A stretch of DNA of 64,000 nt from a virus. The stretch is taken from the IMG/VR virus record IMGVR_UViG_3300044609_000960, positions 95,263 to 159,262 of that record. One strand, 5' to 3'. Shown here piece after piece: positions 6,748 through 41,525 of the stretch. A model generated the notes under the pieces. It saw only the letters and a list, made by a program, of their open reading frames with translations, ran no database searches and had not been told where the DNA came from. The first letter of the stretch is position 1, and each line of letters starts with the position of its first letter. The position numbers were made by a program, and so were the translations under genes.

Positions 6748-6756
6748 TGATAGAAT
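6748..6756 (+). promoter_or_regulatory. Representative of TGATAGAAT extended -10 element (six exact copies seen)
   Basis: Also at 30632, 32970, 34706, 36668, 40651. Confidence 0.8.
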
Positions 6757-6780
6757 ACTAAGGAATATATCGAGAAACCA

Positions 6781-7350
6781 ATGCCCTCTTATCCTAAAAC
6801 AATCGTGGTCCTTGGAGCAGATCGAGTCGGAAAATCCACTACTGTAGAAAACACATATAAAGATCTTGTAGAAAAGGATATCTGTGTCCGTTCTCTCCAT
6901 TTCTCTGGTCCTCAGCCACACCATCATAGCCCCATTCAACAATACCTTGATCCCTTCCAAGCAGCATTGGAAGAAAAAGCCCAGGTTGTTCTCTGTGATC
7001 GTGGATTTTCCGAAGTTTGTTTTTATGAGAAATTCCGACGTCACATCGATATCTCTGAAGAATGGGCCAATAGCGCAGAATCATTCTTCGCCTCTTATAG
7101 CTCACTGATCAAAGTATTTTTGATTGAAAGGGACTGGGAATGGAGCCTCCCATTGCACATCATCGAGATCAATGAGTTATATCCTGGTTGCTCTGATTAC
7201 TTTATGAATATGCAACTTCAAGCCCGAGAAAAAGAGCATGAGGAATACTATGAATATATGAAAGACTATCTCACATACCGTTCTCTTCTTTCTGACATCA
7301 CTATTCTCTCCCCGCCTGACAAGTCTTTCTCTTTGGCCGACGTAGTTTAA
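6781..7350 (+). CDS. Deoxynucleoside monophosphate kinase (thymidylate-kinase-like)
   Basis: N-terminal P-loop GADRVGKST and hhhDR motif (VLCDR). Confidence 0.75.
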   Translation: MPSYPKTIVVLGADRVGKSTTVENTYKDLVEKDICVRSLHFSGPQPHHHSPIQQYLDPFQAALEEKAQVVLCDRGFSEVCFYEKFRRHIDISEEWANSAESFFASYSSLIKVFLIERDWEWSLPLHIIEINELYPGCSDYFMNMQLQAREKEHEEYYEYMKDYLTYRSLLSDITILSPPDKSFSLADVV

Positions 7351-7352
7351 AG
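7345..7352 (+). promoter_or_regulatory. Representative of recurrent G(T/A)TTAA(A/G)(G) putative late promoter motif (about 21 copies)
   Basis: Usually 21-33 nt upstream of start codons on both strands; list in findings. Confidence 0.75.
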
Positions 7353-7384
7353 ATTATTGAATAGATATAGGAACTATTACCCCT

Positions 7385-8107
7385 ATGGCAACCGTATTTA
7401 ACACCGGTCTTCACCGTAAGATCGGCATGGAGTTTGAATATAAAATCTCCTTTCAAGAGTTTCTAACCGAAGCTATCGGTTCGAGTCTCGTATCTTCGTA
7501 TAGCGCAGGATCAAATACTCCTACTGCTCGTACTACTGCTAAAAATGCCTTCGTGGCTTGTGGCCCTAGCATGGGTTTTGAGGCCAAGAAGTTTGCCTAT
7601 GCGACCCTAGAACTTGTTGTAGGCGCTCTTGCAGCCAATGCAAACGTCCCTGCTGCTGATAAAACTGCACTCAACGACCAATTAGTTAACATCACTCGTT
7701 ATGTTGGTATTACAGGCGATGGTGATTTCCATTTCATGGTAGCCACCTTCAACCTCGCTGAGACCATCTCTTCGATCATTGCTGAAGTAGTCCCTGCTCC
7801 TCAGGCCCCTGTGGGAACAATTGTGACTCTTGAGCTTCTTGATGGAGGAAGTGGATACACTGATACTCTGGACGGAACGGCAGATGGCGAGATTACCGTA
7901 GCATTCAATTCTACTGAATCCACCAACCCCGCTGGTTATACTGCCGGTGCGGGAACAGTGTCTATTGCTACTGGTGAAGTAATCACAATCGATGCTATTA
8001 CTAATGGCGGAGCCGGATTCAAAGTTGATCAGATTGTTTCAATCACATCTGCCGGAGCGGATAATGGCGATACGCTTGCAATGGCTATTGTAACCTCTGT
8101 ATCTTGA
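7385..8107 (+). CDS. Putative virion structural protein
   Basis: 240 aa, A/T/G-rich, DGGSGY and NGGAGF motifs; GTTTAAAG motif upstream. Confidence 0.55.
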   Translation: MATVFNTGLHRKIGMEFEYKISFQEFLTEAIGSSLVSSYSAGSNTPTARTTAKNAFVACGPSMGFEAKKFAYATLELVVGALAANANVPAADKTALNDQLVNITRYVGITGDGDFHFMVATFNLAETISSIIAEVVPAPQAPVGTIVTLELLDGGSGYTDTLDGTADGEITVAFNSTESTNPAGYTAGAGTVSIATGEVITIDAITNGGAGFKVDQIVSITSAGADNGDTLAMAIVTSVS

Positions 8108-8120
8108 TCCCAGGTAAGAT

Positions 8121-11807: not shown

Positions 11808-12506
11808 CTAACCATAATACTTAGCACCTTTGGCTAAATTAGCCTTAGCACTTAAGGCTTGAAGTTGAGCATTCATTGCGTGATAATCAAACCAACTCTC
11901 AGCAAGGGTTGTGTCTTTAAAGTAACATTTAGTTCCTCTACAATGTACATCAATCCGTTCCAAATCTATCTTTTCTTCCCTACACCATTCTTCGACTAAG
12001 TTTTTAAATGGATAGGTGTGGTCGATATGGAACTCACCTGAGTTAATGAATTCACCACTCATCGCGCATTTTAATGGTTTTCTTTTGAGTTGGCGATTTA
12101 CACTGAGTCTAAATGTTTTAATTTGAGGCTCGATGATTTGTCTCATCGCTATAAGTGCCTCTTTTTTATTTTGCTTATATTCGGGGATAGCTATTGCCCT
12201 AGGGAAAAGTTCATCAGTGACTTTACCTTTCCCCAGCCAAATTTCCCTCTTAGACCTAGAGGTAATCATCACAATTCCTCTGACGGCCTTACCTTGAAAC
12301 TTCTTATTGCGTATCTTGTACTTTACCTCGCCACGATCTTTAATCGCCTTCCATTTAGGAATCAGATCAATAACCTCATCAAGGAAATCCTTATCTGTTC
12401 CTTTTACAAAGTAGTTAGATTCTGTTCCATAGACAACTTCTGTCCACTTTTTTTCGAACCCTCCCTTCGTGTATTCGTTTCCTTGGATGGATATGACGCG
12501 TCGCAT
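11808..12506 (-). CDS. DCL/DUF3223-like protein with HNH-like C-terminus
   Basis: AMRxxIEPQI, CxxSG, HIDHxxPF, WxxYH, LSxxANL pattern; very basic. Confidence 0.5.
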   Translation of the reverse strand: MRRVISIQGNEYTKGGFEKKWTEVVYGTESNYFVKGTDKDFLDEVIDLIPKWKAIKDRGEVKYKIRNKKFQGKAVRGIVMITSRSKREIWLGKGKVTDELFPRAIAIPEYKQNKKEALIAMRQIIEPQIKTFRLSVNRQLKRKPLKCAMSGEFINSGEFHIDHTYPFKNLVEEWCREEKIDLERIDVHCRGTKCYFKDTTLAESWFDYHAMNAQLQALSAKANLAKGAKYYG

Positions 12507-13189
12507 AGTATAAATTCGATAAGTTGTTCTGAATATTTCTTGATATCATCAGCATTTTTAAGATGAGGATTCTTTCTAACCAAGGTAGATACAGAACGTT
12601 TTTTAACTAAATAGTCAGTAAGAAAAGTTTCATCAACTGGGTCTAGATCAGTGATTTTATGGAGAAGGTCACGATGGCTCATCATAAAGTCCCCCATTGT
12701 CATCTCTGATTCATACTCTGGTTCAATGATGTTCGAGTATTCAGTAACCTGGGAAAAACTCATTGCAAATGCTTGACGTACTGCACGGATTTTTTTAACA
12801 GATACCTGGATTTTTTCGGCGATCTGCTCATCGGTAATGTCTGGATCAGTAGTTGTATATTTCCTAATCTTTAAATAAAGATCGGAATATGATCTGGGGA
12901 TCTTTACCAATCTAGAATTATCTCTGAGATAATTTAGCATATGAAACTGTAAACATCTATTCACCCAGGTAGAAAAATTTGCACCTTTACTCTGATCCCA
13001 AGAGTCATAGATTTTTACAATATACTCAAGGGCGGCGTCTCTAAGTTCTTCATAAGGAAGCCCTGTAAAACTTGAGATTTTTTTCGCTACCTGCGAGGCC
13101 TTCCACATTTGGGAGATGATTTGCTCATCTCGTTCTGATTTTTGCCTACGTGATTTACGACGTGATTGCTTATCTTGTTCTACAGTCAT
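12404..13189 (-). CDS. Phage RNA polymerase sigma factor (SigF/SigB-like)
   Basis: YEEL, WDQSKGANFSTW, YLRDNSRLVKIPR (region 2), region 3 HTH DEQIAEKIQVS. Confidence 0.9.
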   Translation of the reverse strand: MTVEQDKQSRRKSRRQKSERDEQIISQMWKASQVAKKISSFTGLPYEELRDAALEYIVKIYDSWDQSKGANFSTWVNRCLQFHMLNYLRDNSRLVKIPRSYSDLYLKIRKYTTTDPDITDEQIAEKIQVSVKKIRAVRQAFAMSFSQVTEYSNIIEPEYESEMTMGDFMMSHRDLLHKITDLDPVDETFLTDYLVKKRSVSTLVRKNPHLKNADDIKKYSEQLIEFILCDASYPSKETNTRREGSKKSGQKLSMEQNLTTL

Positions 13190-13500
13190 GCTTTTTCGAT
13201 GGCTCCTATGATAAAATCTTTGAGTTGAGACTGAGCTAAAATACCGTCTATGTTTAATCCTAAGAGTTGAGCATCACGATCAAAAACAGCAAAGTTCGGA
13301 GTACCATCGCATTCAATCTGGTCACAAAATGCCCAGTTATCTGATGTTACGTCCCATTCCCCAAATCCCACCGAATAATGTGGGTACTCTTCAGCGATTA
13401 CGTTAGCCGTTTCTGCCCATACAGGTTTCATAGCATTGCATGCCGCGCAACCTGGCTGGTGAAAAAATACAACTCTATATTTAAATTGTTGATCTGTCAT
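13186..13500 (-). CDS. trx: Thioredoxin
   Basis: FHQPGCAACNAMKP (CxxC) and cis-Pro GTP; start chosen at MTDQQ (track start overlaps terminase). Confidence 0.85.
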   Translation of the reverse strand: MTDQQFKYRVVFFHQPGCAACNAMKPVWAETANVIAEEYPHYSVGFGEWDVTSDNWAFCDQIECDGTPNFAVFDRDAQLLGLNIDGILAQSQLKDFIIGAIEKA

Positions 13501-13543
13501 AATGATAAGTATTCCTGCAGGTAATACGTTATGTATTATACCA

Positions 13544-15160
13544 TTAAAGATATTTTGTAGCGGATCCTTTGCTACTTCCCATGGTAGTATTGACTTTACC
13601 CACTTCACTAGAAAGTCTTCTAGATCCACCTCGGTAGAATGGGTCATGGACTAGGCGCGGTAATTCCTTTCTGTCCCCTCCATGGACGGTTCTACCACCC
13701 ATAATCTCATCTCGATAAACGGTCACTCCATACACGAAAGCGTCTACAAAGTCGTCGTTTTTGATAAATGGGAAAGAGGTTAATTCCGCTGTTCTTTCCG
13801 CCAATGAGGGTAGGTTCTCGTAAAGAGAGACGATCCCATCCTCTACAAGCGGGGCAATTGCGTTTGCCCTAAGTACCTTGTCTTTATTAGGTACTAATTC
13901 TTTAATCGAGATATTAATGGTTCTCTTTAGAGTTTGAATCAAAGGGACTCCTTGGGCTCTACCCTCAATATATACACATCTTAGTTTCCAAGTTTTAACA
14001 AGTTGGGGGAAGATCTTCTCAAGATCTGGGAACTCCATTCGATCGAGGATATAATGAATGAGATGAAGTTTACTTTCACGTTTGTCATATCCCCAGATAC
14101 AAATTGCAGTATAATCATTCATCCTATCGGCCTTATAGGCCGTGTCGATAGTGGCATAGATGTAGGAATATTTACTCTTATTCTTTGAATGATACCCAAA
14201 CCAATGTTCTTTAAAGATTGCACCCTGCTCACCGGCTGGTCTGCCTTGGTATAAGGAATTAAAGTCTCTATCGCCGATTGATTTCTTGATCGCCTCAAGG
14301 TTCTCCACAGGAAAAAACTGAGGCCAATGAGACTCACCCAATCTTCTCCCGAGAACATCGTTCTCTTCATCTGTACATAGAGCAGGTACATTAAGCTCCT
14401 TCCAGCCTTCGGGGTCAGCCTTAAGCAATCTACCAATCACATCATCTACATGAAAGCGAGTTCCCATGGAAATGATTCCATGGTTAGGAAGACCACGGGT
14501 TAAGAACTGAGCCTGGGTCCAAGCAAATGTACTCTCCATGACCGTGGGTGAGTTACCATCAGCGAGAAGGTCATCTAGAATCCCAACTCCAGGGAGTTCA
14601 CTGTCATCAATTACGCCAAAACCAAATCCGGTAACGTTACCCCCAGCCGATGCCATCTTAATCAGACCACCATTGTTGTTTCGGATGGCACTTAAATTAG
14701 ATTTATCTCTATCTACCTCGCATTCAGGAAAGAGCCATGCAAAACTCTCATGGGAGATATACTCAATCACTGCTCTAGAGTTTTCGTTGGTGAGTTGGAG
14801 CGCATAAGAGCTCATGATAAATTGGGCAGTGGGGCTCCGACCCATTTGCCATGATGGAAAAACCTTGGAGATAAGCAAAGACTTCCCTGTTCTCGGAGGT
14901 AGGGAGATAGCACTTTGCTTATAATCTTTGTCTCCGTCTCCAATCTTTTGTAGAAAGTTACCGATTACCTCATGGACATGGAATGGTTGAAACTTTCCAG
15001 CAATAGGAACTTCTGATGTTATAAATCGAGCATATGTTAAGAAGTCTGTTCGACATTTAAGTCGAAGGAGTTCTTGTTTGTCTGAAGGTGAAAGGGAAGA
15101 AATATTCCCTTCCATCTCTTTAACAATCTGCCTTTCCTTCGCGGCTTCTACCTTGTTCAT
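13544..15160 (-). CDS. terL: Terminase large subunit
   Basis: PPRTGKS Walker A, ILDD Walker B, GTRFH, LYQG, nuclease IDTA and DDFVD. Confidence 0.93.
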   Translation of the reverse strand: MNKVEAAKERQIVKEMEGNISSLSPSDKQELLRLKCRTDFLTYARFITSEVPIAGKFQPFHVHEVIGNFLQKIGDGDKDYKQSAISLPPRTGKSLLISKVFPSWQMGRSPTAQFIMSSYALQLTNENSRAVIEYISHESFAWLFPECEVDRDKSNLSAIRNNNGGLIKMASAGGNVTGFGFGVIDDSELPGVGILDDLLADGNSPTVMESTFAWTQAQFLTRGLPNHGIISMGTRFHVDDVIGRLLKADPEGWKELNVPALCTDEENDVLGRRLGESHWPQFFPVENLEAIKKSIGDRDFNSLYQGRPAGEQGAIFKEHWFGYHSKNKSKYSYIYATIDTAYKADRMNDYTAICIWGYDKRESKLHLIHYILDRMEFPDLEKIFPQLVKTWKLRCVYIEGRAQGVPLIQTLKRTINISIKELVPNKDKVLRANAIAPLVEDGIVSLYENLPSLAERTAELTSFPFIKNDDFVDAFVYGVTVYRDEIMGGRTVHGGDRKELPRLVHDPFYRGGSRRLSSEVGKVNTTMGSSKGSATKYL

Positions 15161-30593: not shown

Positions 30594-30699
30594 AGAAATG
30601 TATCCAGATTTGGACCTGAAATCCAATTCTGTGATAGAATATCCAAGTGAGCAAAGAGAGATCTTTCCTCCAAGAGACCCTTACTAAGAGAATTTTAAA

Positions 30700-31632
30700 A
30701 TGTCCGCAACTTTTCAAATCACGACCATTGACCTGAGCACAAACGCTCCTCAACTCGCTCCTCTCAGTGGCCGCGAATACACTTCTGAATATACTCAGCT
30801 CCCTAACGCCAACCTTCCTAAGGTGATGCGTAAGGAACTCGATACTGTCTTCCAGTTCCTCACCGGCGAAGAACTCCCTCTCGATGAGAACACTTTCCTT
30901 ATCAAAGCCCGTGATGGTGTGTACTTCCGTCTCTTCGGTCCCGTACTCAAAGTCGGTGCTGATGGCGTAGAAGGCACTGAAACTGGTAAACTCTACATCC
31001 AATGGGGTCCTCGTTTCTTGCCCGTTGGTATTACCAAAGGTGGATTTGTAACCGAAGATGGTCGTGAAATCGAAGCCGAATTTGGTTCTTTCAACTTCTC
31101 CGGTCGTGGTGAAGATCCTTGCCTCTTTGTTTCGGTAGATACCAATGATGGCCAAACAGTCCTCCCTGTGGCAGTCCGCTTCAGCGACTGGGAAAATCCC
31201 ACCGATCCTAAGGCCCTCAACGCTCTTCTGAAGAAGAAGCCTGAGGATGTTGTTGCTCTCCTCCAACCTGTGACTGCAAAGGGTGCTGCTTCTGGCCCTC
31301 GCATTGAAGCCGATGAAGAAATCGATTTCCGTGAGTTGGATGTAAACACCCCTTATCAGGTTGTTGGGTACTATCCCTGTAAGACTTCGTATGGCTTGAC
31401 CTATCGCATCTTGATCGATAACCTCCCTGAAGAGGGCAAGGTTTCTGGCGCATGGGCCCATAGCTCCATTCGTCCTCTCTTGGCTACCAAGCCCGAGATC
31501 AACCGTGATAAGCCTGCTACTCTTACCCTGCGTAGCAAAGAAGAACTCGATTCTGGCAAGATTCGTATCCGCTCCACTCTCCTCCTTGCTCAGCAAGAGA
31601 GTTCCGAAGAAGCATTGAATTTAGATTTTTAG
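30700..31632 (+). CDS. Putative single-stranded DNA-binding protein
   Basis: Beta-rich, acidic tail ending ESSEEALNLDF, strongly biased codons, TGATAGAAT promoter; no family recognised. Confidence 0.4.
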   Translation: MSATFQITTIDLSTNAPQLAPLSGREYTSEYTQLPNANLPKVMRKELDTVFQFLTGEELPLDENTFLIKARDGVYFRLFGPVLKVGADGVEGTETGKLYIQWGPRFLPVGITKGGFVTEDGREIEAEFGSFNFSGRGEDPCLFVSVDTNDGQTVLPVAVRFSDWENPTDPKALNALLKKKPEDVVALLQPVTAKGAASGPRIEADEEIDFRELDVNTPYQVVGYYPCKTSYGLTYRILIDNLPEEGKVSGAWAHSSIRPLLATKPEINRDKPATLTLRSKEELDSGKIRIRSTLLLAQQESSEEALNLDF

Positions 31633-32444: not shown

Positions 32445-32972
32445 ATGGAGAACGATTTAAGAGTCCCTGAGGGTTGGGGTGTTGCAGAATACGCCGAACC
32501 TGGTAAGGACACTGGTAAACAATCTAAGAACCTAGAGTTAATTGCACCTGGTCCTCAGAGTGGTGAAGATGATTATCATTCTCAATATGTAGACCCAGAA
32601 GGTAAGTTTGGTGCTGCGAAGACAGAACGTGGGTCCTCAGAGCATTGTTCATATGGCGGAGAAGAATCCTCCCAAGAAGAACCAAAAGGCTCCCAGCCCT
32701 ATGATGTTGGTCAACTCCACCTCGAAGATAAAGAAGTAGTGGTGGAAGATGGTAGACAGAGAGGCTATCATTACTATCTTGTTACCCATCCCGACGAAGA
32801 GTATTTCTACTCTGTTATTCCTAAACTCCGTGGTAATAAAGAGACCTATAAGAGCCCACGTAAATCAACTCGTAAGGAAGCCCTAGAAGCAGCCTATAAA
32901 GTTCTCAATGTAACTCTCCCTGCTTCTATTTCAGATCAGATGCATTACACGTATCCAGAATCAGAAATATGA
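32445..32972 (+). CDS. Hypothetical acidic protein with N-terminal VPEGW tag
   Basis: 175 aa ORF, GTTTAAAG motif 23 nt upstream. Confidence 0.65.
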   Translation: MENDLRVPEGWGVAEYAEPGKDTGKQSKNLELIAPGPQSGEDDYHSQYVDPEGKFGAAKTERGSSEHCSYGGEESSQEEPKGSQPYDVGQLHLEDKEVVVEDGRQRGYHYYLVTHPDEEYFYSVIPKLRGNKETYKSPRKSTRKEALEAAYKVLNVTLPASISDQMHYTYPESEI

Positions 32973-33023
32973 TAGAATAAGATTCTATCCATTTAATCAA
33001 CCCATACCCTCTTTCTCCATCCC

Positions 33024-34019
33024 ATGAGCAGTATCCTCGAGCATAATAAGATGATCTTTAAAAAGGACACAGGGTTTGACTTCCCTGAGTTCTATGACTA
33101 TTATGAACGTACCGTGGCTAGCGTATGGCGACATCAAGAAGTTGCCATGGAGTCGGATCTTCGCGACTGGCAATTCAACTCCACTCCAGATGAAAGGAAG
33201 GTTATTGCTGGTATCCTCAAGGGATTTGTAAGTGCTGAGTTGGGTATTGGTTGCTACTGGGCTGATGAGGTCTGTCGAATCTTCCCCAAACCGGAGATCC
33301 AGGCCATGGCCAAAGCCTTTTCATTCTTTGAGACAATTCACGCTGCAGCCTACTCGTACCTGAATGATGTTCTAGGTCTTAAGGAATACGAGGAGTTTAT
33401 CAATGATCCTGTTGCCTGTTCTAAGATCGATACGTTCTTCTCTAAATATCCCGATAAGGTATCTCTCGCCGTATTCTCTGGAGCTGGTGAGGGTGTAAGT
33501 CTCTTTAGTTCTTTCGCTGTTCTCCTCAGTTTTAATAAGGATGGACGTTATAAGGGACTTGCTCAAATCATCTCTTGGAGTGCTATTGATGAACAAACCC
33601 ATTCAGAGGCAGGTTGCCAACTCTTCCGTCGACTTGTCGATGAGGTAGGTCTTTCTGAGGATGATAAAAAAGCAATCTATGATGGATTTCAATTAGTTAT
33701 TGATAAAGAGTTTGCTTTTATTGACCATATCTTCAACTCTGCTAGTATTTCTTCGATTGACGCAAATGAGTTGAAAGCTTATATTAAGAACAGAGCCAAC
33801 GAACGTCTACTTCTTCTAGGCCTTGATCAAATGTTCAAACTATCAACCCAAGAACTAACTCAAGCGAAGTCAGTTTCTTCATGGTTTGATCCAACAGTCA
33901 AGGGTGCAAGTAGCACAGACTTCTTCGCTGCCTCTAAAGACGGTGCGAATTACGTTGCCAAAGTCTCCCAAGACTTTATGACAGTGGATCTTTCTGCACT
34001 CGATCTAGTACTTTCTTGA
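33024..34019 (+). CDS. nrdB: Ribonucleotide reductase class I beta subunit
   Basis: ETIHAAAY, EGVSLFSSF, DEQTH iron ligands; TDFF tail. Confidence 0.95.
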   Translation: MSSILEHNKMIFKKDTGFDFPEFYDYYERTVASVWRHQEVAMESDLRDWQFNSTPDERKVIAGILKGFVSAELGIGCYWADEVCRIFPKPEIQAMAKAFSFFETIHAAAYSYLNDVLGLKEYEEFINDPVACSKIDTFFSKYPDKVSLAVFSGAGEGVSLFSSFAVLLSFNKDGRYKGLAQIISWSAIDEQTHSEAGCQLFRRLVDEVGLSEDDKKAIYDGFQLVIDKEFAFIDHIFNSASISSIDANELKAYIKNRANERLLLLGLDQMFKLSTQELTQAKSVSSWFDPTVKGASSTDFFAASKDGANYVAKVSQDFMTVDLSALDLVLS

Positions 34020-34630: not shown

Positions 34631-34734
34631 ATAAAACTAAATAACTAACTAACCAACCCATTGAGTTACATCTTAGTAACTATTGGGTTCGTTTACCATG
34701 CCTTATGATAGAATAAACTACCCACTTTGATCAA

Positions 34735-36651
34735 ATGCCAGAACTTCAAGTACCAGAATGGATGAGCAAGGAAGCTGTTGATACCCTCTCACGAGGATAT
34801 CTATGGAACGCTGAGACTCCTAGAGGAATGTTTGAGAGGGTCTCAAATCAAGCAGCAAAGATCCTTGACTACCCAGAGCTCTCTGAGGATCTCTTTGAGG
34901 TTCTTTGGAGAGGGTTTCTTGGCCTAGCCACTCCTGTGGCCAGTAACTTTGGCACCTCAAGGGGACTACCAATTAGTTGCTATTCCACTCATCTTTCTGA
35001 CTCTGTCCAGTCTATCTACTCCCACCTCAAGGAAGTCGCTGCATTATCTAAAAATGGTGGAGGAGTAGGAATATACCTAGGTGATATCCGTCCTTCTGGA
35101 TCCCCAATCGCTTCCGGTGGGAAGAGTACTGGCATTGTGCCATGGGCTCGGCAATATGACCAATGTGCCTCTGTGGTTTCTCAAGGTGGAGTGAGGAGAG
35201 GTAGTTTTGCCATGTATCTCCCAATCGATCATCCTGATCTTGCTGAGTTACTTCGCACCAAAGACCATTCCCAAGGAGACCCACGGGATTTTATCGATAG
35301 TAATATTGCTGTTTCGATCACCGATGAGTGGGTGGAGAGTATGATTACTGGGGATCGGGATAAGCAAAAAATCTTTGGTGAGGTGCTTAAGGCTCGGATG
35401 ATTAGTGGGTCTCCCTACATTATCTACATTGATAACGCTAATCGCGCCAATCCCGAGTGCTATACTCAACGTGGTCTTAAAGTAAGTCTCAGTAATCTCT
35501 GTTCTGAAATCTTCCTTCACACTGACGAAAACCACACCTTTGTATGCGTACTCAGCTCCATCAACCTTGCCCGATGGGAAGAATGGAAAGACTGGAGAGG
35601 GGCAAAGACTGGCAAATCTGTACCTGAGTTGGCCGTATACCTCCTCGATGCGGTGGTTGAAGAGTTTTGCCATAAGGGTGATCGCATGCCTTCCATGGGT
35701 CGGAGTGTCCGCTTTGCACGTAAATCCAGAGCCCTTGGCCTAGGTACTATGGGACTCCATGCTCTTTATCAGTCCAAGAGTCTCCCATTTGCATCTAAAG
35801 AAGCGCGGGATCTCAATATTGAGACTCATCGATTTATTAAAGAACAAGCAATTAAGGCTTCGGAAGAGATGGCCAAACGATATGGCGAGCCGGAGTGGTG
35901 CGAGGGAAGTGGTCGTCGTCATACCCACCTTATGGCAATTGCCCCAACCCGGTCCAACTCAGTTATCTGTGGAGCAGTGAGTCAAGGAATCGAGCCTATT
36001 GACGCAAATTATTATGTTGCTAAGCAAGCAAAAGGAACCTTTGTACGTAAAAATCCTTATCTCGAAAATCATCTGGAGTCTATTGGGAAAAATACAGATG
36101 AGGTATGGGAAAGCATCTTGGAGTTTAGGGGATCTGTGCAACATTTAGACTTCCTGTCAGAGGACGCAAAGAATATCTTCCTTACTGCCCGGGAGACTGA
36201 TCAGTTTGAACTCGTAAAACAGGCATCTGATCGTCAACCATATGTCTGCCAAGGGCAATCCCTCAACCTCTTCGTAGATCCAGAGTCCTCCCCTGAGTAC
36301 CTCTTCAAGCTCCACTTGAGCGCCTGGAAAGGTGGATTGAAATCACTCTATTATCTGAAGAGTAGTTCGCTCCTTGTGAAACGTAAGAAACTCGAGACAG
36401 TAACTAAAACTGCAAAGATCATCACCAAGGAAACGTGCCCATATTGCACTATGGCAAAGTCCTTGCTCAAATCTAAGGGCTATAAAATCGAGGAGATTGA
36501 CCGGGCCGAAGTACCTGACTCAGAGTTTCCTTATCGCACCGTTCCTCAAATCTGGATTAATGGTTCCTATATCGGAGGGTATACTGACCTTGCCGAAAAG
36601 ATCGGCACTCCAGAAAAACAATATGGAGACTGCGCTGCTTGTGAAGGTTGA
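34735..36651 (+). CDS. nrdA: Ribonucleotide reductase class I alpha subunit with glutaredoxin fusion
   Basis: PISC, GGGVG, RRG, NLCSE, APT, LYY; then CPYC, TVPQI, IGGY (Grx) and terminal CAAC. Confidence 0.95.
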   Translation: MPELQVPEWMSKEAVDTLSRGYLWNAETPRGMFERVSNQAAKILDYPELSEDLFEVLWRGFLGLATPVASNFGTSRGLPISCYSTHLSDSVQSIYSHLKEVAALSKNGGGVGIYLGDIRPSGSPIASGGKSTGIVPWARQYDQCASVVSQGGVRRGSFAMYLPIDHPDLAELLRTKDHSQGDPRDFIDSNIAVSITDEWVESMITGDRDKQKIFGEVLKARMISGSPYIIYIDNANRANPECYTQRGLKVSLSNLCSEIFLHTDENHTFVCVLSSINLARWEEWKDWRGAKTGKSVPELAVYLLDAVVEEFCHKGDRMPSMGRSVRFARKSRALGLGTMGLHALYQSKSLPFASKEARDLNIETHRFIKEQAIKASEEMAKRYGEPEWCEGSGRRHTHLMAIAPTRSNSVICGAVSQGIEPIDANYYVAKQAKGTFVRKNPYLENHLESIGKNTDEVWESILEFRGSVQHLDFLSEDAKNIFLTARETDQFELVKQASDRQPYVCQGQSLNLFVDPESSPEYLFKLHLSAWKGGLKSLYYLKSSSLLVKRKKLETVTKTAKIITKETCPYCTMAKSLLKSKGYKIEEIDRAEVPDSEFPYRTVPQIWINGSYIGGYTDLAEKIGTPEKQYGDCAACEG

Positions 36652-36676
36652 CAGAGATAACCTATTATGATAGAAT
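36648..36676 (+). promoter_or_regulatory. Sigma70-type promoter
   Basis: TTGACA-N17-TAGAAT with TG extension. Confidence 0.85.
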
Positions 36677-36699
36677 CTAAAAGCCAATTTATTAACGAC

Positions 36700-37155
36700 A
36701 TGATGTTCGATTACGCAAAATTTATCGACCAAGGATATGCCTCTCAGCAGAAATATGCCAAGGCAGCCGGACAACCTGGACCTCTTGACCCAGATCTCAC
36801 CAGAGAAGATCGTCATGCAAAAGTAATCGAGTACATGGGTCATCTTATTGAAGAGACTATTGAAGCCCGAGTTTATGTCCCTCGTCGCAGTTGGAAAAAT
36901 AATGAACCTTCATTCCTAGACAATGATAAAAACCGAGAGGAATTTATCGCAGAGATGTTTGACATTCTTCTCTTCCACCGCGCTGCTCTTGCATACGCCG
37001 GTGTGACAGGATCTGAATTTGCAGAGATTGCGGAAAAGAAAATGAATTACAATTCAAAACGCAAGGACCATAACGTCAATGGTACTGAATCCGCATCTCA
37101 AGACCCCGCACAAGAACTCCAAGGAAACTGCTCATCTGCCAACTTTAATGGCTAA
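36700..37155 (+). CDS. All-alpha dNTP pyrophosphatase (dimeric dUTPase / T4 gp56 dCTPase / MazG superfamily)
   Basis: EETIE, PRRSWK, EMFD, KMNYNSKR motifs; track ATG at 36667 lies inside the promoter so 36700 is preferred. Confidence 0.75.
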   Translation: MMFDYAKFIDQGYASQQKYAKAAGQPGPLDPDLTREDRHAKVIEYMGHLIEETIEARVYVPRRSWKNNEPSFLDNDKNREEFIAEMFDILLFHRAALAYAGVTGSEFAEIAEKKMNYNSKRKDHNVNGTESASQDPAQELQGNCSSANFNG

Positions 37156-37318
37156 AGAAACACAGTATAAAGCATTTGGCACCACTCGGTGCCATTATTG
37201 CGATGGGAGGGGGTTTCTAATCCTCCAACAATCAACTCTGGAGGGCAAGATCCTCCCTAACCACGTAGAAGAATGCGAAAGGTGCAATGGAAACGGATTT
37301 TTTGAACAGAATAACTAG
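37148..37318 (+). CDS. Small DnaJ-type zinc-finger protein
   Basis: 56 aa with two CxxCxGxG motifs (CHYCDGRG, CERCNGNG). Confidence 0.65.
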   Translation: MAKETQYKAFGTTRCHYCDGRGFLILQQSTLEGKILPNHVEECERCNGNGFFEQNN

Positions 37319-37772
37319 AGGGCAAATTCTTGTTCTTAATGCTAGTTATGAGCCAATCAACATAACCTCTTGGAAGAGGGCATTTGTCCTCCTCTTGAAA
37401 GAGAAGGCTCAAATAATCAATCATAGGGTCATCCGCCTAGTTGAGTATATCAAAATCCCATTTACAAAACTTCGCAATAACAAACCTACCAGAAGCGCAA
37501 TCTACGCGCGAGATGGTCATAAATGCCAGTACTGTGGCGCAACTCGTAAGTTAACTATTGATCACGTTATTCCAAAATCCAAAGGTGGGAGCGATGATTG
37601 GGACAATTTGGTTGTTGCTTGTTCTTCTTGTAATACTAAAAAAGGAGATAAATATCTTGAGCAGACGGGGATGAAGCTCATTAGAATACCAGTTCAGCCA
37701 CGCACTCATCTCGACTTGGCAATTTCCCAAACAAATCTTACAGAATGGCGTGAATACTGTTTTATAGTTTAA
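37287..37772 (+). CDS. HNH endonuclease (McrA/HNH_5-like)
   Basis: LVLNASYEP, RDGHKCQYCG, TIDHVIP, NLVVACSSCN. Confidence 0.92.
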   Translation: METDFLNRITRGQILVLNASYEPINITSWKRAFVLLLKEKAQIINHRVIRLVEYIKIPFTKLRNNKPTRSAIYARDGHKCQYCGATRKLTIDHVIPKSKGGSDDWDNLVVACSSCNTKKGDKYLEQTGMKLIRIPVQPRTHLDLAISQTNLTEWREYCFIV

Positions 37773-38173: not shown

Positions 38174-38185
38174 ATTAAAGTCAAG

Positions 38186-38214
38186 GAGAGGGGACAATCT
38201 TCCCTCTCTTTTTT
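38186..38214 (+). terminator. Intrinsic terminator
   Basis: GAGAGGGGA/TTCCCTCTC stem plus T run. Confidence 0.75.
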
Positions 38215-38221
38215 ATTAGAT

Positions 38222-38788
38222 ATGGACTTCTATTTTTCTTTTGGCAAAAAGAGAGCTTCAGAAAGAGAAACAATCTTTTCTGCAGCTATTATCTGGGGGT
38301 TCATAGAGGCAATAATGGACCCACTCTTGGACTTCTTAAATAAGAAGATCATAGCAAGATTTGATGGGGAAAAGTTAAAGGTAGTATTTGATGAGTTGGA
38401 TATATTTTGGCTAAGAAATGGTAATAGTAAACATTATTCCGACTCTGACATAAGATTAATAATTTCTTTATTTTTAAGATCAGTAGAAGATAATAATTTA
38501 ACCAGAAAGGAACTTCTTGCTTTAGTAGATTTTATTCAGAGAAAGTGGATTGCCTCTGAGGCATTACAAAAAACCTTTACCCAAACAGACGAGGTAATTG
38601 ATGCTTATGTAGAGGCCACAGTAGATCAGGCAATCGAACTCTATGAGAAGACCTATATGGAAAAGCCACTAACCCCAGAGGAGTTTGTGGCTAATACTGC
38701 AGAAATAATCTTCCATGAGCCAGATGGGAGCAAAGCCCAAGAACTCTTAGGAGGAATGATGGAGATTAAAAATAAATTTTTCTATTAA
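38222..38788 (+). CDS. Hypothetical protein
   Basis: 188 aa helical ORF. Confidence 0.6.
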   Translation: MDFYFSFGKKRASERETIFSAAIIWGFIEAIMDPLLDFLNKKIIARFDGEKLKVVFDELDIFWLRNGNSKHYSDSDIRLIISLFLRSVEDNNLTRKELLALVDFIQRKWIASEALQKTFTQTDEVIDAYVEATVDQAIELYEKTYMEKPLTPEEFVANTAEIIFHEPDGSKAQELLGGMMEIKNKFFY

Positions 38789-39999
38789 ATCGACCAAAGA
38801 GGCTTCATTGGCTTTTTAGAATCGGTATTATTCTGCCTAAGAATTTTTGTCGATCCATCATCCTTTCTCTCAGGCTCAATCCATTCTCTCTTACCATCGA
38901 GCACAGCTGCGATCTCAGTAATCCAGTCCCCTGCAGTACATGCAGGGACATTTTGGCAAATTACATTACTATCTTTGGTGGGAATATGGACCTTCTCAGC
39001 GTAGTCATTAGGAAAGCCCATAAGCGCTAGACCTTCTGCCACAGTCAACCAACGGTCCTCGTGGGGATGCATAAGATAAGGCAATGACTTCCACATGAGA
39101 GATTGGGTTCTATACCAGGCCAGCTTCATGCTCCCATCCATGATATTTTTACCTGCTTTTTTCTTCTCAAGAGTGTAGTTGAGCCAACGATTAGCCTTCT
39201 CATCTTTAACAACTCTACAAGCCTCTTCTAACCAACCTGAGTCATGAATAACATTCCATACTGAAGTCATACGTTCAGATGCTACATGAGCAAGTATGTC
39301 TTGCTTAGTCGAACCTACAAACTTTGATTCAATAAACTGCCAGAGTGGATCTTCACTGGGAAGTTTTTTAGACTTACTAACAGAGTCGCTAGGAGCAAAT
39401 CTCCCGTCCTTAAGAAACTTATGGAATGGGTCAAATGATTTTTTGATAGGTGCCATAACAGGTACCTTATCTCCTTTCCATAGGAAGAAGAATGAACGAG
39501 TACGCTCTTGAGGCACTCCATGATTAATCGAGGTGGTTTTCACCAAACTCATAGTATACCCATGTTCATTCGCCAAGGCATTAATCCTTTCTGCAAACTC
39601 CTCACCCATCTTTGAATAAAGAGTAGGGGCATTCTCCACCATAATTGCCTTTGGCTTAATGTTCTTCATTGAAAACTCAGCAGCATTGTACATATGAATG
39701 TTACTAGGAGCTGAGCAACCACGAGGATTATTTGCTTTATCCCCTGAGGTGGTATTTGCCATCGAAAGTCCTGCGCATGGAGGCAAAGACGTAACAATAT
39801 CTACGTACCCTTTAGGAAATGCATTCTCTTCAAAGTCATAAAAAGGCACCTTGTCCATATACTTGAGGCAATATTGATCATTAGCCCCAAACACACTGCC
39901 CCAAGATGCAATCCATTCAGGCTCTGATCCTAGAGCAATCGATGTTCCAACAACACTGCCACCTACTAGGGGGATAATGTGTCCGTGAGTGTACGCCAT
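38785..39999 (-). CDS. Divergent DNA cytosine-C5 methyltransferase-fold protein
   Basis: PPC (IV), ENA (VI), PQERTR (VIII), RWLT..E...LMGFP (IX), QNVP (X); motif I reads IPLVGG instead of FxGxG. Confidence 0.85.
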   Translation of the reverse strand: MAYTHGHIIPLVGGSVVGTSIALGSEPEWIASWGSVFGANDQYCLKYMDKVPFYDFEENAFPKGYVDIVTSLPPCAGLSMANTTSGDKANNPRGCSAPSNIHMYNAAEFSMKNIKPKAIMVENAPTLYSKMGEEFAERINALANEHGYTMSLVKTTSINHGVPQERTRSFFFLWKGDKVPVMAPIKKSFDPFHKFLKDGRFAPSDSVSKSKKLPSEDPLWQFIESKFVGSTKQDILAHVASERMTSVWNVIHDSGWLEEACRVVKDEKANRWLNYTLEKKKAGKNIMDGSMKLAWYRTQSLMWKSLPYLMHPHEDRWLTVAEGLALMGFPNDYAEKVHIPTKDSNVICQNVPACTAGDWITEIAAVLDGKREWIEPERKDDGSTKILRQNNTDSKKPMKPLWSI

Positions 40000-40077
40000 A
40001 AAGTATTTGTGATATTATCTAAGGGATCCTTAGACTGAAAATCTTCGGTTTAAAGACTAGGGAGGATAGAATTAGAA

Positions 40078-40374
40078 ATGGACAAAAAACTCTCGACTCA
40101 GGATTACATGGAAATCTTGAAGAAGAAGCGCCAAGATGGGACATATGACTATGCAGATCGTGTGTTCTATAAAGGTAAAGTCATGCTAAAATGTCCTCCA
40201 GGATCTACAAAAGCTGGAAATACCTGCGTCCCATCAATGAAAACACCAGCGGGTATGGGACCTGGAAAAACCTGGCAAAAAGACTTAGGTGGTATTAATC
40301 CCCAACAAGTACAACAACTAACAACAGCTAAATCCCAAAAAGACGTTAAAAAAGCCAGAAAGTCCGGCAGTTAA
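40078..40374 (+). CDS. Small basic protein with CPPG...CVP motif
   Basis: 98 aa, GGAGG and GTTTAAAG upstream. Confidence 0.6.
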   Translation: MDKKLSTQDYMEILKKKRQDGTYDYADRVFYKGKVMLKCPPGSTKAGNTCVPSMKTPAGMGPGKTWQKDLGGINPQQVQQLTTAKSQKDVKKARKSGS

Positions 40375-40392
40375 ATTGTTTTTATAATAACT

Positions 40393-40635
40393 ATGATTGA
40401 AAGAATCTCAAAGCCAATTCGCTTTGATAAGCAAATCCCTTGGCTAATTGTTGCCCGTGATGGAGAAAAATTCTTTGTAGCAAAAGAAGATGTAATTGCA
40501 GAAGATCCCTCAATGGAACTTATTGAGATGGGTTCTCGCTCACTCCTCCAGTGGGCCATGGAATATGACTATCCACTCCGTAAATTTGTAAAGCTCCAAA
40601 AAATCCTTGTTAAGAAGTATTTCGATATTCAGTGA
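40393..40635 (+). CDS. Hypothetical protein
   Basis: 80 aa ORF co-oriented with neighbours. Confidence 0.55.
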   Translation: MIERISKPIRFDKQIPWLIVARDGEKFFVAKEDVIAEDPSMELIEMGSRSLLQWAMEYDYPLRKFVKLQKILVKKYFDIQ

Positions 40636-40688
40636 TAAAGAGGTTTCCTATGATAGAATGATGATCAAATCATTCACCTCGGGAGACC

Positions 40689-41525
40689 ATGACTCTATCC
40701 TTTGATTATCAGTACATCAAGATCGCAAAAGAGATCCTTTCTGAAGGAACTGAGATCGTCGGCCGGAATAATCTGCGATACAAGCAGATGTTCGGCCAGA
40801 CTATCAAAGTTGATATTCGGGAAGGATTTCCTGCATTGACCATTCGTAAAATGCCCGTTCGTAATCTCTTCAGAGAGTTTATGTGGGATATCAATGGGGA
40901 TTATAAAGTTTCAGCACTTGGTCCCGCAAAACATTTCTGGGATTTTCTGGCCGATACTGAAGGCCGTCTTGCTGGGTCTTATGGACGTTCTTGGCGCTCT
41001 TGGCCACAAGTCTGCCCAGAACAAGATATGCAATGGGAAAACTTCCGTGCCAAACCATTCGATCAGCTCAAGTGGATCTGGGAACAACTCCGCATTAACC
41101 CCACCAATCGACAACTTGTTCTTCAGACTTTTAATCCTGCTTACGATTCTCTTCACTGCCCTCCTTGTCATCCTAACGTCGTGTTTTCTAGCGATGGGGC
41201 TCATCTGGATATCTTGGTAACAGCTCGGAGTAATGACATGGCCACCGGGGTCCCCTTGGATATGTTCCGTTATAGCATTCTTTGCACAAAGATGGCTCAA
41301 GATGCAAATCTTATTCCTAGGTTTGTGATGTTTACTTCTGCCAATAATCACATCTATCTGCAGAATGAGATGGCCATTGAATCTATTATCAAGAACGTCC
41401 CAATGGAACCTTGTGACCTCTGGATTAATAATGAAAAACCCTTGTTCGATCTTGATCCAGAAATTGATTTTGAATTGATTGATTATCAGTCTCATCCTGC
41501 TGTCCGTATGGAGGTGGCAAACTGA
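40689..41525 (+). CDS. Thymidylate synthase homologue, predicted dCMP (hydroxy)methylase
   Basis: GFPALT, FRE..W, YG..W, PPCH, RSND, HIY; Asp191 at the position equivalent to E. coli Asn177. Confidence 0.85.
   Translation: MTLSFDYQYIKIAKEILSEGTEIVGRNNLRYKQMFGQTIKVDIREGFPALTIRKMPVRNLFREFMWDINGDYKVSALGPAKHFWDFLADTEGRLAGSYGRSWRSWPQVCPEQDMQWENFRAKPFDQLKWIWEQLRINPTNRQLVLQTFNPAYDSLHCPPCHPNVVFSSDGAHLDILVTARSNDMATGVPLDMFRYSILCTKMAQDANLIPRFVMFTSANNHIYLQNEMAIESIIKNVPMEPCDLWINNEKPLFDLDPEIDFELIDYQSHPAVRMEVAN

What the first reader, a model, noticed from the sequence alone, without database searches (positions are those of the whole stretch)
6748..41525. Dispersed but co-regulated nucleotide-substitution regulon (kinase, pyrophosphatase, RNR, TS homologue)
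Seen: the exact 9-mer TGATAGAAT precedes the dNMP kinase (6748), putative SSB (30632), nrdB (32970), nrdA (34706), all-alpha pyrophosphatase (36668) and TS homologue (40651); variants precede prim-pol (TGATAAAAT, 44741) and thyX (TGATAAGAT, 62560). Established: T4 needs gp42 (modifier), gp1 (kinase) and gp56 (dCTPase) to replace C. Inference: the kinase stranded among structural genes 34 kb away and the pyrophosphatase are the gp1 and gp56 equivalents, a link that gene-neighbourhood analysis would miss.
Basis: partly seen in the sequence, partly recalled or inferred. Interest (0 to 1): 0.8.

Follow-up and report, generated by a model that had tools for sequence, protein, structure and literature searches.

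The report
Host-type promoters on cyanophage nucleotide genes
The repeated word TGATAGAAT is an ordinary host-type (sigma-70, extended -10) promoter used by many genes of a TIM5-like marine cyanophage, but three of the genes it precedes (an Asp-type thymidylate-synthase homologue, a thymidylate-kinase-like kinase and a MazG-like pyrophosphatase) also sit together in unrelated phages and probably make a modified cytosine for the phage DNA.

Summary
Observation confirmed. TGATAGAAT occurs 7 times in the window (1.6 expected). Six copies lie 20-60 nt upstream of the named genes, or on the listed ATG in the pyrophosphatase's case.

It is not a special regulon word. It is the extended -10 element (TRTGnTAnnAT) of a sigma-70-type promoter. 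In 15+ relatives, including cyanophage S-TIM5, the element stays at the same positions, but the hexamer drifts (TAGAAT, TATAAT, TATGAT, TAAAAT). A canonical TTGACA often lies 17 bp upstream.

About 20 such promoters exist in the 159-kb genome. They also precede DNA polymerase, dCMP deaminase, tRNA-Arg/Gly, an AAA ATPase and several unknowns. Structural genes use a second motif, GTTTAAAG.

The biochemical inference does better:
- The ThyA homologue has Asp at the E. coli N177 position.
- ThyX and a homologue of T4 DNA alpha-glucosyltransferase are present, and no TET was found.
- The kinase is thymidylate-kinase-like and unrelated to T4 gp1. Its distant relatives lie directly beside Asp-type TS genes in nine or more other viral contigs (12 of 12 TS are Asp).
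- The MazG-like gene joins them in three lineages.

Whether the product is 5hmC or 5mC is unproven, and a C5 DNA methylase remains unexplained.

The parts
6748..6756 (+). extended -10 promoter element (ctaTGATAGAAT) 24 nt upstream of the kinase start, set among GTTTAAAG-driven structural genes
   Evidence: An extended -10 sits at the same position in 15 orthologous loci, with TTGAC(A/T/C) at 16-18 bp in several
6781..7350 (+). thymidylate-kinase-like P-loop kinase (GADRVGKST P-loop, CDRGF motif), member of a small, mostly viral family
   Evidence: Distant relatives lie beside Asp-type TS genes
30632..30640 (+). extended -10 element 59 nt upstream of gene 30700
   Evidence: Conserved in L003 (TGGTATGAT), S-TIM5 (TTGACA-17-TGATATAAT) and G031 (identical)
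30700..31632 (+). protein of unknown function (phrog_25892).
32970..32978 (+). extended -10 element 45 nt upstream of nrdB
   Evidence: Present in close relatives L001 and L003, absent in S-TIM5 and L012, where nrdB follows another gene directly
33024..34019 (+). ribonucleotide reductase small subunit (nrdB)
   Evidence: PF00268, 8.8e-48
34706..34714 (+). extended -10 element 20 nt upstream of nrdA
   Evidence: TGnTAnnAT is present at this position in all six relatives examined
34735..36651 (+). ribonucleotide reductase large subunit with a C-terminal glutaredoxin domain
36648..36676 (+). full sigma-70-type promoter, TTGACA-17 bp-TAGAAT with a TG extension, upstream of the MazG-like gene
   Evidence: 11 of 12 consensus matches, TG present. 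Conserved in 6 relatives
36700..37155 (+). all-alpha NTP pyrophosphohydrolase (MazG/PRA-PH/DCTPP1-like). Start corrected from 36667 to 36700
   Evidence: (invariant E51 E52 E55 ... E81 E85 D88)
38785..39999 (-). C5 cytosine DNA methyltransferase homologue with PC, ENV and QxRxR motifs. Part of the context; its role is unexplained
   Evidence: Conserved in all relatives examined
40651..40659 (+). extended -10 element 29 nt upstream of the ThyA homologue
   Evidence: TGnTAnnAT is conserved in 12 related loci while the flanks diverge; TTGAC(A/T) lies at 17 bp in L011, L012 and S-TIM5
40689..41525 (+). thymidylate-synthase homologue with the catalytic Cys (PPCH) and Asp at the E. coli N177 position (GVPLD). 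Predicted to act on dCMP
42815..42820 (+). TATAAT -10 hexamer without TG, 25 nt upstream of the primase gene 42846-44687. Same promoter family, missed by the 9-mer
   Evidence: Relatives have TTGACA or TTGACT upstream
44741..44749 (+). extended -10 element (TGATAAAAT) ending 6 nt before the ATG of gene 44756-45745, a likely leaderless transcript
   Evidence: The 6-nt spacing is kept in L001, L003, L005 and L007
62560..62568 (+). TTGACA-17 bp-TAAGAT promoter with a TG extension, upstream of thyX
62597..63355 (+). flavin-dependent thymidylate synthase ThyX. The start is probably the in-frame ATG at 62597
   Evidence: TIGR02170, 8.7e-50

Best explanation
The window is the right-hand 64 kb of a 159-kb TIM5-like (Aurunvirus-related) marine cyanophage.

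TGATAGAAT, usually preceded by TA, is the extended -10 element (TRTGnTAnnAT) of promoters read by the host RNA polymerase with its primary sigma-70-type factor. Most copies have no good -35 box and rely on the TG extension. Each nucleotide-metabolism gene carries its own copy 6-60 nt upstream of its start. This lets the kinase be expressed with the replication genes although it lies among structural operons, which use a different motif (GTTTAAAG). The class is general: it also precedes DNA polymerase A, the prim-pol-like gene, dCMP deaminase, two tRNAs, probably the topoisomerase/AGT/glf operon, and several unknown genes.

Within this class, inferred but not shown, four enzymes form a T4-like pre-replicative cytosine-replacement route. 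The MazG-like pyrophosphatase turns dCTP into dCMP. The Asp-type ThyA homologue converts dCMP to 5-hydroxymethyl-dCMP (less likely 5-methyl-dCMP). The thymidylate-kinase-like enzyme phosphorylates the 5-substituted dCMP, and probably dTMP as well. After replication, the homologue of T4 DNA alpha-glucosyltransferase adds a sugar. ThyX plus dCMP deaminase supply dTMP separately.
For: Promoter identity:
- The motif is enriched and oriented: 6 sense copies in upstream zones against 0.49 expected and 0 antisense for the exact word, and 24 against 7.2 expected and 9 antisense for TGnTAnnAT.
- Aligned sites carry information only in cTA-TGATAnAAT; there is no other shared box.
- Orthologous promoters in 12 TS loci, 15 kinase loci and 6 nrdA and MazG-like loci keep TGnTAnnAT while the hexamer and flanks change. 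Many add TTGACA/TTGACT at 16-18 bp.
- An exact copy with TTGACC at 17 bp lies 12 nt before tRNA-Arg.

Generality of the class.

Pathway:
- Asp at the N177 position and the catalytic Cys are present.
- N177D switches TS to dCMP, and Asp-type TS plus PRA-PH co-occur in modified viral contigs (PMC8670742; bioRxiv 10.1101/2024.12.05.627091).
- ThyX is present.
- The AGT homologue hits only T4 DNA alpha-glucosyltransferase in the PDB, at E 1.8e-11 (phrog_2888 at 1.5e-86).
- No TET/JBP was found.
- The kinase model (pLDDT 94.6) is closest to thymidylate kinases.
- Distant kinase relatives (24-40% identity) lie in tandem with or overlap TS homologues in nine or more contigs whose TS are only 57-82% identical to one another. 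All 12 TS found in kinase-bearing contigs have Asp.
- MazG-like genes cluster with them in G017, G014 and G025.
- The pyrophosphatase keeps the ExxE...ExxD metal ligands, and its top fold matches are all-alpha NTP pyrophosphatases led by mouse dCTPase.
Against: - No transcription start or timing data exist.
- The phage encodes a sigma region-2-like protein, so recognition by a phage factor is not formally excluded.
- The ThyA homologue keeps H147, Y94 and a full TS-like C-terminus. It is only 20% identical to T4 gp42 and 25% to the 5mC-phage PaMx74 enzyme. Sequence therefore does not say whether the product is 5hmC or 5mC.
- A conserved, apparently active C5 DNA methyltransferase would have no substrate if C were fully replaced.
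- AGT is absent from the two near-complete non-TIM5 genomes that carry the trio.
- Kinase and pyrophosphatase specificities are unknown. A kinase for dTMP only and a general dCTP/dGTP-clearing MazG would also fit an AT-rich phage in a GC-rich host.
Confidence: 0.7

Rival explanations
1. A dedicated regulon. The exact word TGATAGAAT (G at hexamer position 3, TA before it) is read by a phage-specific factor, or needs a phage activator. This would give the nucleotide-substitution genes a common, separate timing.
For: Five of the eight exact copies in promoter position precede nucleotide-metabolism genes, against 2 of about 13 variant copies. The phage encodes a sigma region-2-like protein and an ADP-ribosyltransferase that could reprogramme RNAP.
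Against: The hexamer changes freely at orthologous sites. The kinase promoter is TGATATAAT in a relative with 97% identical kinase, and nrdB, nrdA and TS promoters vary among TAGAAT, TATAAT, TAAAAT and TATGAT. Exact copies also precede tRNA-Arg/Gly and an unknown 119-aa gene. No shared upstream box was found. Canonical TTGACA at 17 bp in relatives points to the host primary sigma.
Confidence: 0.07
2. A thymidine-supply reading. The kinase is a plain dTMP kinase and the MazG-like enzyme a general dCTP/dGTP-clearing pyrophosphatase. With dCMP deaminase and ThyX they shift the pool of a GC-rich host towards dTTP for a 41%-GC phage. They have no special link to a modified base.
For: The best fold and motif matches of the kinase are thymidylate kinases. 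The genome has dCMP deaminase and ThyX, both with the same promoter type. Genome GC is 40.7%. From memory, cyanophage MazG has been reported to prefer dGTP and dCTP; this was not checked here.
Against: The kinase family is small: 164 clusters among 1.84 billion representative proteins, and distinct from canonical Tmk. Its distant members are physically coupled to Asp-type TS genes in several lineages. This reading does not explain the Asp-type ThyA or the AGT homologue. The two readings are not exclusive: T4 gp1 acts on both dTMP and hm-dCMP (annotation).
Confidence: 0.2
3. A 5-methylcytosine variant. The ThyA homologue is a dCMP methylase, as in Xp12 and PaMx74, and the DNA carries 5mC. The AGT homologue then acts on something else or on a minor base.
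For: The enzyme keeps nearly all TS catalytic residues and the TS-type C-terminus needed for hydride transfer, unlike T4 gp42. A single N177D change makes TS a dCMP methylase. In G025 the related TS is overlapped by a dCMP deaminase, the arrangement reported for 5mdCMP-making enzymes.
Against: A homologue of T4 AGT needs a hydroxyl acceptor, and no TET/JBP oxidase was found to make 5hmC from 5mC. Identity to the PaMx74 enzyme is only 25%, and PaMx74 has Pro rather than His after the catalytic Cys.
Confidence: 0.25

Closest known systems
Extended -10 (TGn / TRTGn) sigma-70 promoters of bacteria and phage early genes
   Same: TG one base upstream of a TAnnAT hexamer, often preceded by TA. A -35 box is optional, and TTGACA lies at 17 bp where it is present. 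The element sits a short distance upstream of genes, and its position is conserved in relatives.
   Different: Nothing distinctive was found. The G at hexamer position 3 is common in this genome but not conserved in relatives. Initiation has not been shown experimentally.
Phage T4 hydroxymethylcytosine pathway (gp56 dCTPase, gp42 dCMP hydroxymethylase, gp1 dNMP kinase, alpha-/beta-glucosyltransferase)
   Same: A TS-fold enzyme with Asp at the base-specificity position, aligned with T4 D179. A homologue of T4 AGT. A P-loop nucleotide kinase and a helical NTP pyrophosphatase. In both phages the kinase gene sits among structural genes.
   Different: The kinase is thymidylate-kinase-like and shares only the P-loop with gp1. 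The pyrophosphatase shows no significant similarity to gp56. The TS homologue is closer to true TS (30-34% identity) than to gp42 (20%) and keeps the TS C-terminus. A UDP-galactopyranose mutase is coupled to the AGT gene. A C5 DNA methylase and ThyX are present.
Asp-type TS homologues with PRA-PH/MazG and dCMP deaminase in modified-cytosine metaviromes (MetaGPA; Xp12 and PaMx74 5mC phages)
   Same: Asp at N177, co-occurrence with a PRA-PH-like pyrophosphatase and a dCMP deaminase.
   Different: Here the genes are dispersed over more than 100 kb rather than clustered. His147 is retained. The linked kinase family is not mentioned in the passages of those papers read here.
Cyanophage S-TIM5 and TIM5-like phages (Aurunvirus)
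   Same: Syntenic replication and nucleotide module. ThyA 78% identical, kinase 55% (L033). The MazG-like gene, the C5 methylase and AGT are all present.
   Different: This genome adds glf after the AGT gene. In the papers read, ThyA, DNA methylase and DNA alpha-GT are annotated, but promoters and base modification are not discussed.

Membership tests
sigma-70-type extended -10 promoter | TG dinucleotide one base upstream of a TAnnAT -10 hexamer | tested here: met
   All six cited sites and about 14 more
sigma-70-type extended -10 promoter | Sense-oriented position shortly upstream of genes, more often than chance | tested here: met
   Exact word: 6 sense, 0 antisense, 0.49 expected. TGnTAnnAT: 24 sense, 9 antisense, 7.2 expected
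sigma-70-type extended -10 promoter | -35 hexamer TTGACA at 16-18 bp (optional for this class) | tested here: met
   Present at 36648 and upstream of 62560 in the window and at genome 9532, 16254 and 55320. Present at orthologous sites of relatives for TS, kinase and MazG-like genes. Absent at most of this genome's own sites
sigma-70-type extended -10 promoter | Transcription starts 5-9 nt downstream and depends on host RNAP with its primary sigma | not testable with these tools
Thymidylate synthase ThyA (PF00303), canonical dUMP methylase | TS fold and catalytic Cys146 | tested here: met
   PF00303 at 1.6e-53, PPCH motif
Thymidylate synthase ThyA (PF00303), canonical dUMP methylase | Asn177 contacting the uracil | tested here: not met
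   Asp in GVPLD, aligned with the N of GVPFN in solved TS structures and with T4 D179
T4 gp42-type dCMP hydroxymethylase | Asp at the specificity position | tested here: met
T4 gp42-type dCMP hydroxymethylase | Close sequence kinship with gp42 and the shortened C-terminus | tested here: not met
   20% identity at E 1e-4. No dCMP-hydroxymethylase PHROG among the hits. A TS-like C-terminus is retained
T4 gp42-type dCMP hydroxymethylase | Product is 5-hydroxymethyl-dCMP | not testable with these tools
   Indirect support only: the AGT homologue and the absence of TET
T4 gp1 dNMP kinase family | Sequence homology beyond the P-loop | tested here: not met
   BLASTP found nothing. hhalign gave probability 11% over 34 P-loop columns
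Thymidylate kinase (PF02223) | P-loop GxDRxGKST, a DR(Y/F/H)-like motif and the Tmk fold | tested here: met
   GADRVGKST and CDRGF are invariant in 28 homologues. The top 30 or so Foldseek hits are nearly all thymidylate kinases, E about 1e-5, TM 0.5-0.6
Thymidylate kinase (PF02223) | Score above Pfam's gathering threshold | tested here: not met
   15.3 bits against 27. 13 of 28 homologues match at E <= 0.05, best 9.4e-6. A profile search of 1.84 billion proteins returns only 164 clusters, not the canonical Tmk family
All-alpha NTP pyrophosphohydrolases (MazG / PRA-PH / DCTPP1 / T4 gp56) | Four-helix core with ExxE ... ExxD metal ligands | tested here: met
   Invariant E51 E52 E55 and E81 E85 D88. 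Model pLDDT 90.5. The top 7 VIA matches are all from this superfamily, Z 6.8-7.5, a range common for helical models. Foldseek's top hit is mouse dCTPase at E 0.1
All-alpha NTP pyrophosphohydrolases (MazG / PRA-PH / DCTPP1 / T4 gp56) | Specific homology to T4 gp56 and dCTP specificity | tested here: inconclusive
   BLASTP found nothing. hhalign gave probability 10% and pairwise E 0.003 over the ExxD helix. Specificity is not testable here
T4 DNA alpha-glucosyltransferase (AGT, PF11440) | Sequence homology to AGT | tested here: met
   The only PDB hits are T4 AGT, at E 1.8e-11 over 270 residues. phrog_2888 at 1.5e-86. The Pfam score of 23.1 is just under the cut-off of 25

The most novel reading that the evidence does not exclude
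TIM5-like marine cyanophages replace cytosine with 5-hydroxymethylcytosine and then glycosylate it. In this phage the sugar may be a galactofuranose supplied by the coupled glf gene. The route is T4-like, but its kinase step is carried out by a previously uncharacterised thymidylate-kinase-like family. That family is specialised for 5-substituted dCMP and is genetically coupled to Asp-type TS homologues across several unrelated phage lineages.
Probability: 0.45. Interest if true: 0.65.

Novelty: new variant of a known kind. Interest (0 to 1): 0.45.

Why it matters
The promoter result is ordinary, but it gives a usable transcription map for a little-studied cyanophage lineage. Host-type extended -10 promoters precede DNA-metabolism genes and tRNAs, and GTTTAAAG precedes structural operons.

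The pathway result predicts that TIM5-like cyanophages carry modified, probably glycosylated, cytosine. This would affect their resistance to host restriction and CRISPR. It would also affect how well they are recovered by some sequencing and PCR methods, including the polony assays used to count them.

The work also points to a small kinase family, linked to Asp-type TS genes, as a candidate modified-dCMP kinase. Such an enzyme could be useful for making modified dNTPs in vivo, a job for which T4 gp1 is now the standard tool.

Tried and rejected
- Chance occurrence of the 9-mer: rejected.
- A shared upstream activator box, as in T4 MotA promoters: aligning 20 sites showed no information outside cTATGATAnAAT.
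- A generic TTGACA/TATAAT consensus scan has no power here: 32 sites against 32.2 expected. Only the TG-extended form is enriched.
- The S-TIM5 genome paper (Sabehi 2012) is not held. The TIM5-like genome paper mentions neither promoters nor base modification.
- A post-replicative route to 5hmC: no TET/JBP and no 2OG-FeII_Oxy_3 match in the genome.
- Telling 5hmC from 5mC by similarity to characterised enzymes: not discriminating. Identity is 20% to T4 gp42, 25% to PaMx74 ThyA and 30-34% to ordinary TS.
- PaMx74 gp53, the 'hydrolase' that overlaps its thyA, is not a member of the kinase family.
- AGT as a universal partner of the trio: not found in 21 other kinase-bearing contigs, including two near-complete genomes.
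- Identity of the '30700 SSB': Pfam, NCBIfam and the protein atlas gave nothing.
- Co-occurrence of kinase and MazG-like genes within TIM5-like relatives was set aside as uninformative, because it follows from shared ancestry.

Full report
**What the window is.** The window is bases 95,263-159,262 of a single 159,262-bp phage contig with 40.7% GC. Nucleotide searches find almost nothing close. The ThyA homologue is 77-78% identical to those of cyanophages S-TIM5, S-TIM54, S-TIM61 and S-TIM66, which infect marine Synechococcus. The gene order around it matches S-TIM5. Twelve IMG/VR contigs carry the same module, with TS identity of 77-89%. The phage is therefore a TIM5-like (Aurunvirus-related) cyanomyovirus.

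**The observation.** TGATAGAAT occurs seven times in the window against 1.63 expected, and none of 100 shuffles reached seven. Six copies are on the + strand at the stated coordinates. Five end 20-59 nt upstream of the starts of the kinase-like gene, the 30700 gene, nrdB, nrdA and the ThyA homologue. The sixth overlaps the ATG that an ORF listing gives for the pyrophosphatase. Homologues of that protein are about 150 aa and align from residue 12, so the true start is probably 36700 and the motif lies 23 nt upstream of it. The two variants before the prim-pol-like gene and thyX are also present.

In the whole genome, six of the 11 exact copies lie in sense orientation in the 75 nt before a called start. 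The expectation is 0.49, and there are no antisense copies.

**What the word is.** The word reads TG-A-TAGAAT, which is a TG extension plus a -10 hexamer, and it is usually preceded by TA. This is the TRTGn form of the extended -10 element. Two sites in the window have a perfect TTGACA 17 bp upstream (36648 and the thyX site). When 20 sites are aligned, the only information lies in cTA-TGATAnAAT, and no second box appears.

The comparative evidence is the strongest. Upstream of the ThyA homologue, all 12 related loci keep TGnTAnnAT while the surrounding sequence diverges. The more distant ones read TTGACT or TTGACA, then 17 bp, then TGATATAAT or TGATATGAT. The same holds for nrdA and the MazG-like gene (six relatives each), the 30700 gene, the prim-pol-like gene, and the kinase gene in 15 loci with 51-97% protein identity.

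The hexamer itself is free to vary. The kinase promoter is TGATATAAT in a relative whose kinase is 97% identical. In the closest large relative, nrdB has TATAAT and nrdA has TAAAAT. What is conserved is therefore a generic sigma-70-type promoter, not the particular 9-mer.

**How general the class is.** Scanning every upstream region of a crude 168-gene map gives about 20 credible TGnTAnnAT promoters.
- DNA polymerase A, with a mitochondrial-type exonuclease domain (cctaTGATAAAAT);
- dCMP deaminase;
- an HbpS-like gene;
- the first gene of a long block of small ORFs (TTGACA-17-TATTAT);
- a 340-aa gene, an AAA ATPase, and several unknowns;
- a small gene that heads the probable topoisomerase II / AGT-homologue / glf operon.

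The primase has TATAAT without TG, and relatives have TTGACA there. An exact TGATAGAAT with TTGACC at 17 bp lies 12 nt upstream of tRNA-Arg and tRNA-Gly.

Structural operons instead carry GTTTAAAG 20-45 nt upstream of their starts. This motif occurs 34 times in the genome, 24 of them in sense upstream zones, and it is conserved as far as S-TIM5. Other first-stage notes had flagged this motif.

The phage encodes a sigma region-2-like protein next to thioredoxin and terminase. It is a natural candidate reader of GTTTAAAG. The canonical -35/-10 geometry of the other class points to the host primary sigma. 'Co-regulated' is therefore true only in the sense that all DNA-metabolism genes, tRNAs and several others share the host-type promoter class.

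**The enzymes.**

*ThyA homologue.* It is a full-length TS (PF00303, 1.6e-53) with the catalytic Cys. It has Asp where E. coli has Asn177 (GVPLD against GVPFN), and this Asp aligns with T4 gp42 D179. The literature read here states that N177D switches TS to dCMP. It also states that Asp-type TS, PRA-PH-type pyrophosphatases and dCMP deaminases co-occur in contigs with modified cytosine. ThyX is present and intact, so dTMP synthesis does not depend on this enzyme.

*Kinase.* It has only sub-threshold Pfam hits. Its invariant GADRVGKST P-loop and CDRGF motif are those of type-I thymidylate kinases. A confident model (pLDDT 94.6) is matched mostly by thymidylate kinases. It shares only the P-loop with T4 gp1. 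The family is small, with 164 clusters in 1.84 billion representative proteins.

*Pyrophosphatase.* It keeps the ExxE...ExxD ligands. Its model (pLDDT 90.5) is matched first by all-alpha NTP pyrophosphatases, led by mouse dCTPase. The scores are modest, as is usual for helical bundles. Similarity to T4 gp56 is not significant.

Co-occurrence inside the TIM5-like lineage is uninformative, so I looked at distant members of the kinase family (24-40% identity) in IMG/VR. Of 21 such contigs, 12 contain a TS homologue, and all 12 have Asp at the specificity position.

In nine contigs the kinase gene lies immediately upstream of the TS gene on the same strand, and in G017 the two overlap by 4 nt. The TS proteins of these nine contigs are only 57-82% identical to one another, so the linkage has been kept over considerable divergence.

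MazG-like relatives join them in three lineages:
- In G017 one lies 3 kb from the kinase-TS pair on the same strand.
- In the complete 118-kb genome G014 the order is prim-pol-like, MazG-like, one ORF, kinase.
- In G025 the deaminase-TS pair, the kinase and the MazG-like gene lie within 11 kb.

This is independent support for a functional trio.

**Which base.** T4 AGT is its only hit in the PDB, at E 1.8e-11, and phrog_2888 matches at 1.5e-86. Its 3' end overlaps a UDP-galactopyranose mutase gene (PF03275, 2e-71). S-TIM5 and G003 also have the AGT gene, and S-TIM5 lacks glf. No TET/JBP dioxygenase was found. The only evident source of a hydroxymethyl acceptor is therefore the ThyA homologue, which favours 5hmC followed by glycosylation.

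Several facts cut the other way:
- The enzyme keeps His147, Tyr94 and the TS C-terminus.
- It is no closer to T4 gp42 (20%) than to a 5mC-phage enzyme (PaMx74, 25%) or to ordinary TS (30-34%).
- A conserved C5 DNA methyltransferase with intact PC, ENV and QxRxR motifs lies next to it.
- The near-complete non-TIM5 genomes with the trio lack AGT.

I put 5hmC at roughly twice the odds of 5mC, and full replacement of C remains unproven.

**Verdict.** The 'regulon' is the phage's general host-type promoter class, so that part is ordinary. It rests on gene neighbourhoods in other phages, and on analogy with gp1 and gp56 rather than on membership of their families. Nothing in the literature I could search connects TIM5-like phages with modified cytosine. 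That prediction, and the kinase family, are the parts worth testing.

Noticed in passing
outside the window: genome 16254-16424 (L026:16254-16424): An exact TGATAGAAT with TTGACC 17 bp upstream lies 12 nt before tRNA-Arg(tct), which is followed by tRNA-Gly(tcc). Six more tRNAs follow between 17657 and 19200.
   Followed up: yes
window 44741-44758; L001, L003, L005, L007: The -10 hexamer of the prim-pol-like gene ends exactly 6 nt before its ATG, in this genome and in four relatives. This suggests a conserved leaderless mRNA.
   Followed up: partly
window 12404-13189 (-), 13186-13647 (-): A sigma-70 region-2-like protein (about 24-26 bits, at the Pfam cut-off) lies next to a thioredoxin and the large terminase. 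It is a candidate factor for the GTTTAAAG promoters.
   Followed up: partly
window-wide, e.g. 5431(-), 6285(-), 6674(-), 7345, 31656, 32415, 40048, 46038, 55206, 56356, 60886: GTTTAAAG sits 20-45 nt upstream of structural and some other genes, often followed by a TATA-rich stretch. It is conserved upstream of orthologues as far as S-TIM5. At the kinase gene it forms a divergent pair with the host-type promoter.
   Followed up: partly
outside the window: genome 5906-8346 (L026:5906-8346): A homologue of T4 DNA alpha-glucosyltransferase overlaps a UDP-galactopyranose mutase gene. S-TIM5 has the transferase but not the mutase, which hints at a furanose sugar on the DNA of this phage.
   Followed up: partly
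window 38785-39999 (-): A conserved C5 cytosine DNA methyltransferase homologue with intact catalytic motifs lies beside the Asp-type ThyA homologue. It is hard to reconcile with complete replacement of cytosine.
   Followed up: partly
window 30641-30699: The 59-nt leader of gene 30700 is highly conserved between this phage, L003 and S-TIM5. A small hairpin is predicted, with compensatory changes in a two-sequence alignment. It may be a translational operator.
   Followed up: partly
window 13209-13217 (+): cctaTGATAAAAT is identical over 13 nt to the DNA polymerase promoter. It points antisense into the thioredoxin gene, so it is either an antisense promoter or chance.
   Followed up: no
window 31686-32414, 34220-34630, 37287-37772: Three homing-endonuclease genes (NUMOD3, HNH_3/NUMOD4 and HNH) are inserted around nrdB, nrdA and the MazG-like gene. 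S-TIM5 has HNH genes at similar places.
   Followed up: no
window 42815-42846: The primase -10 hexamer is followed directly by a conserved GC hairpin and a T run, just before the ATG. A terminator for the upstream ThyA/flap-endonuclease unit therefore overlaps the primase promoter.
   Followed up: partly
window 52316-55072: A 918-aa protein carries a C-terminal ADP-ribosyltransferase domain (PF03496, 6e-12). It could modify host proteins such as RNA polymerase.
   Followed up: no
L119 (G017), L120 (G014), L121 (G025), L122 (G016): Unrelated viral contigs carry compact kinase / Asp-type TS / MazG-like clusters inside their replication modules. In G025 a dCMP deaminase overlaps the TS gene.
   Followed up: partly
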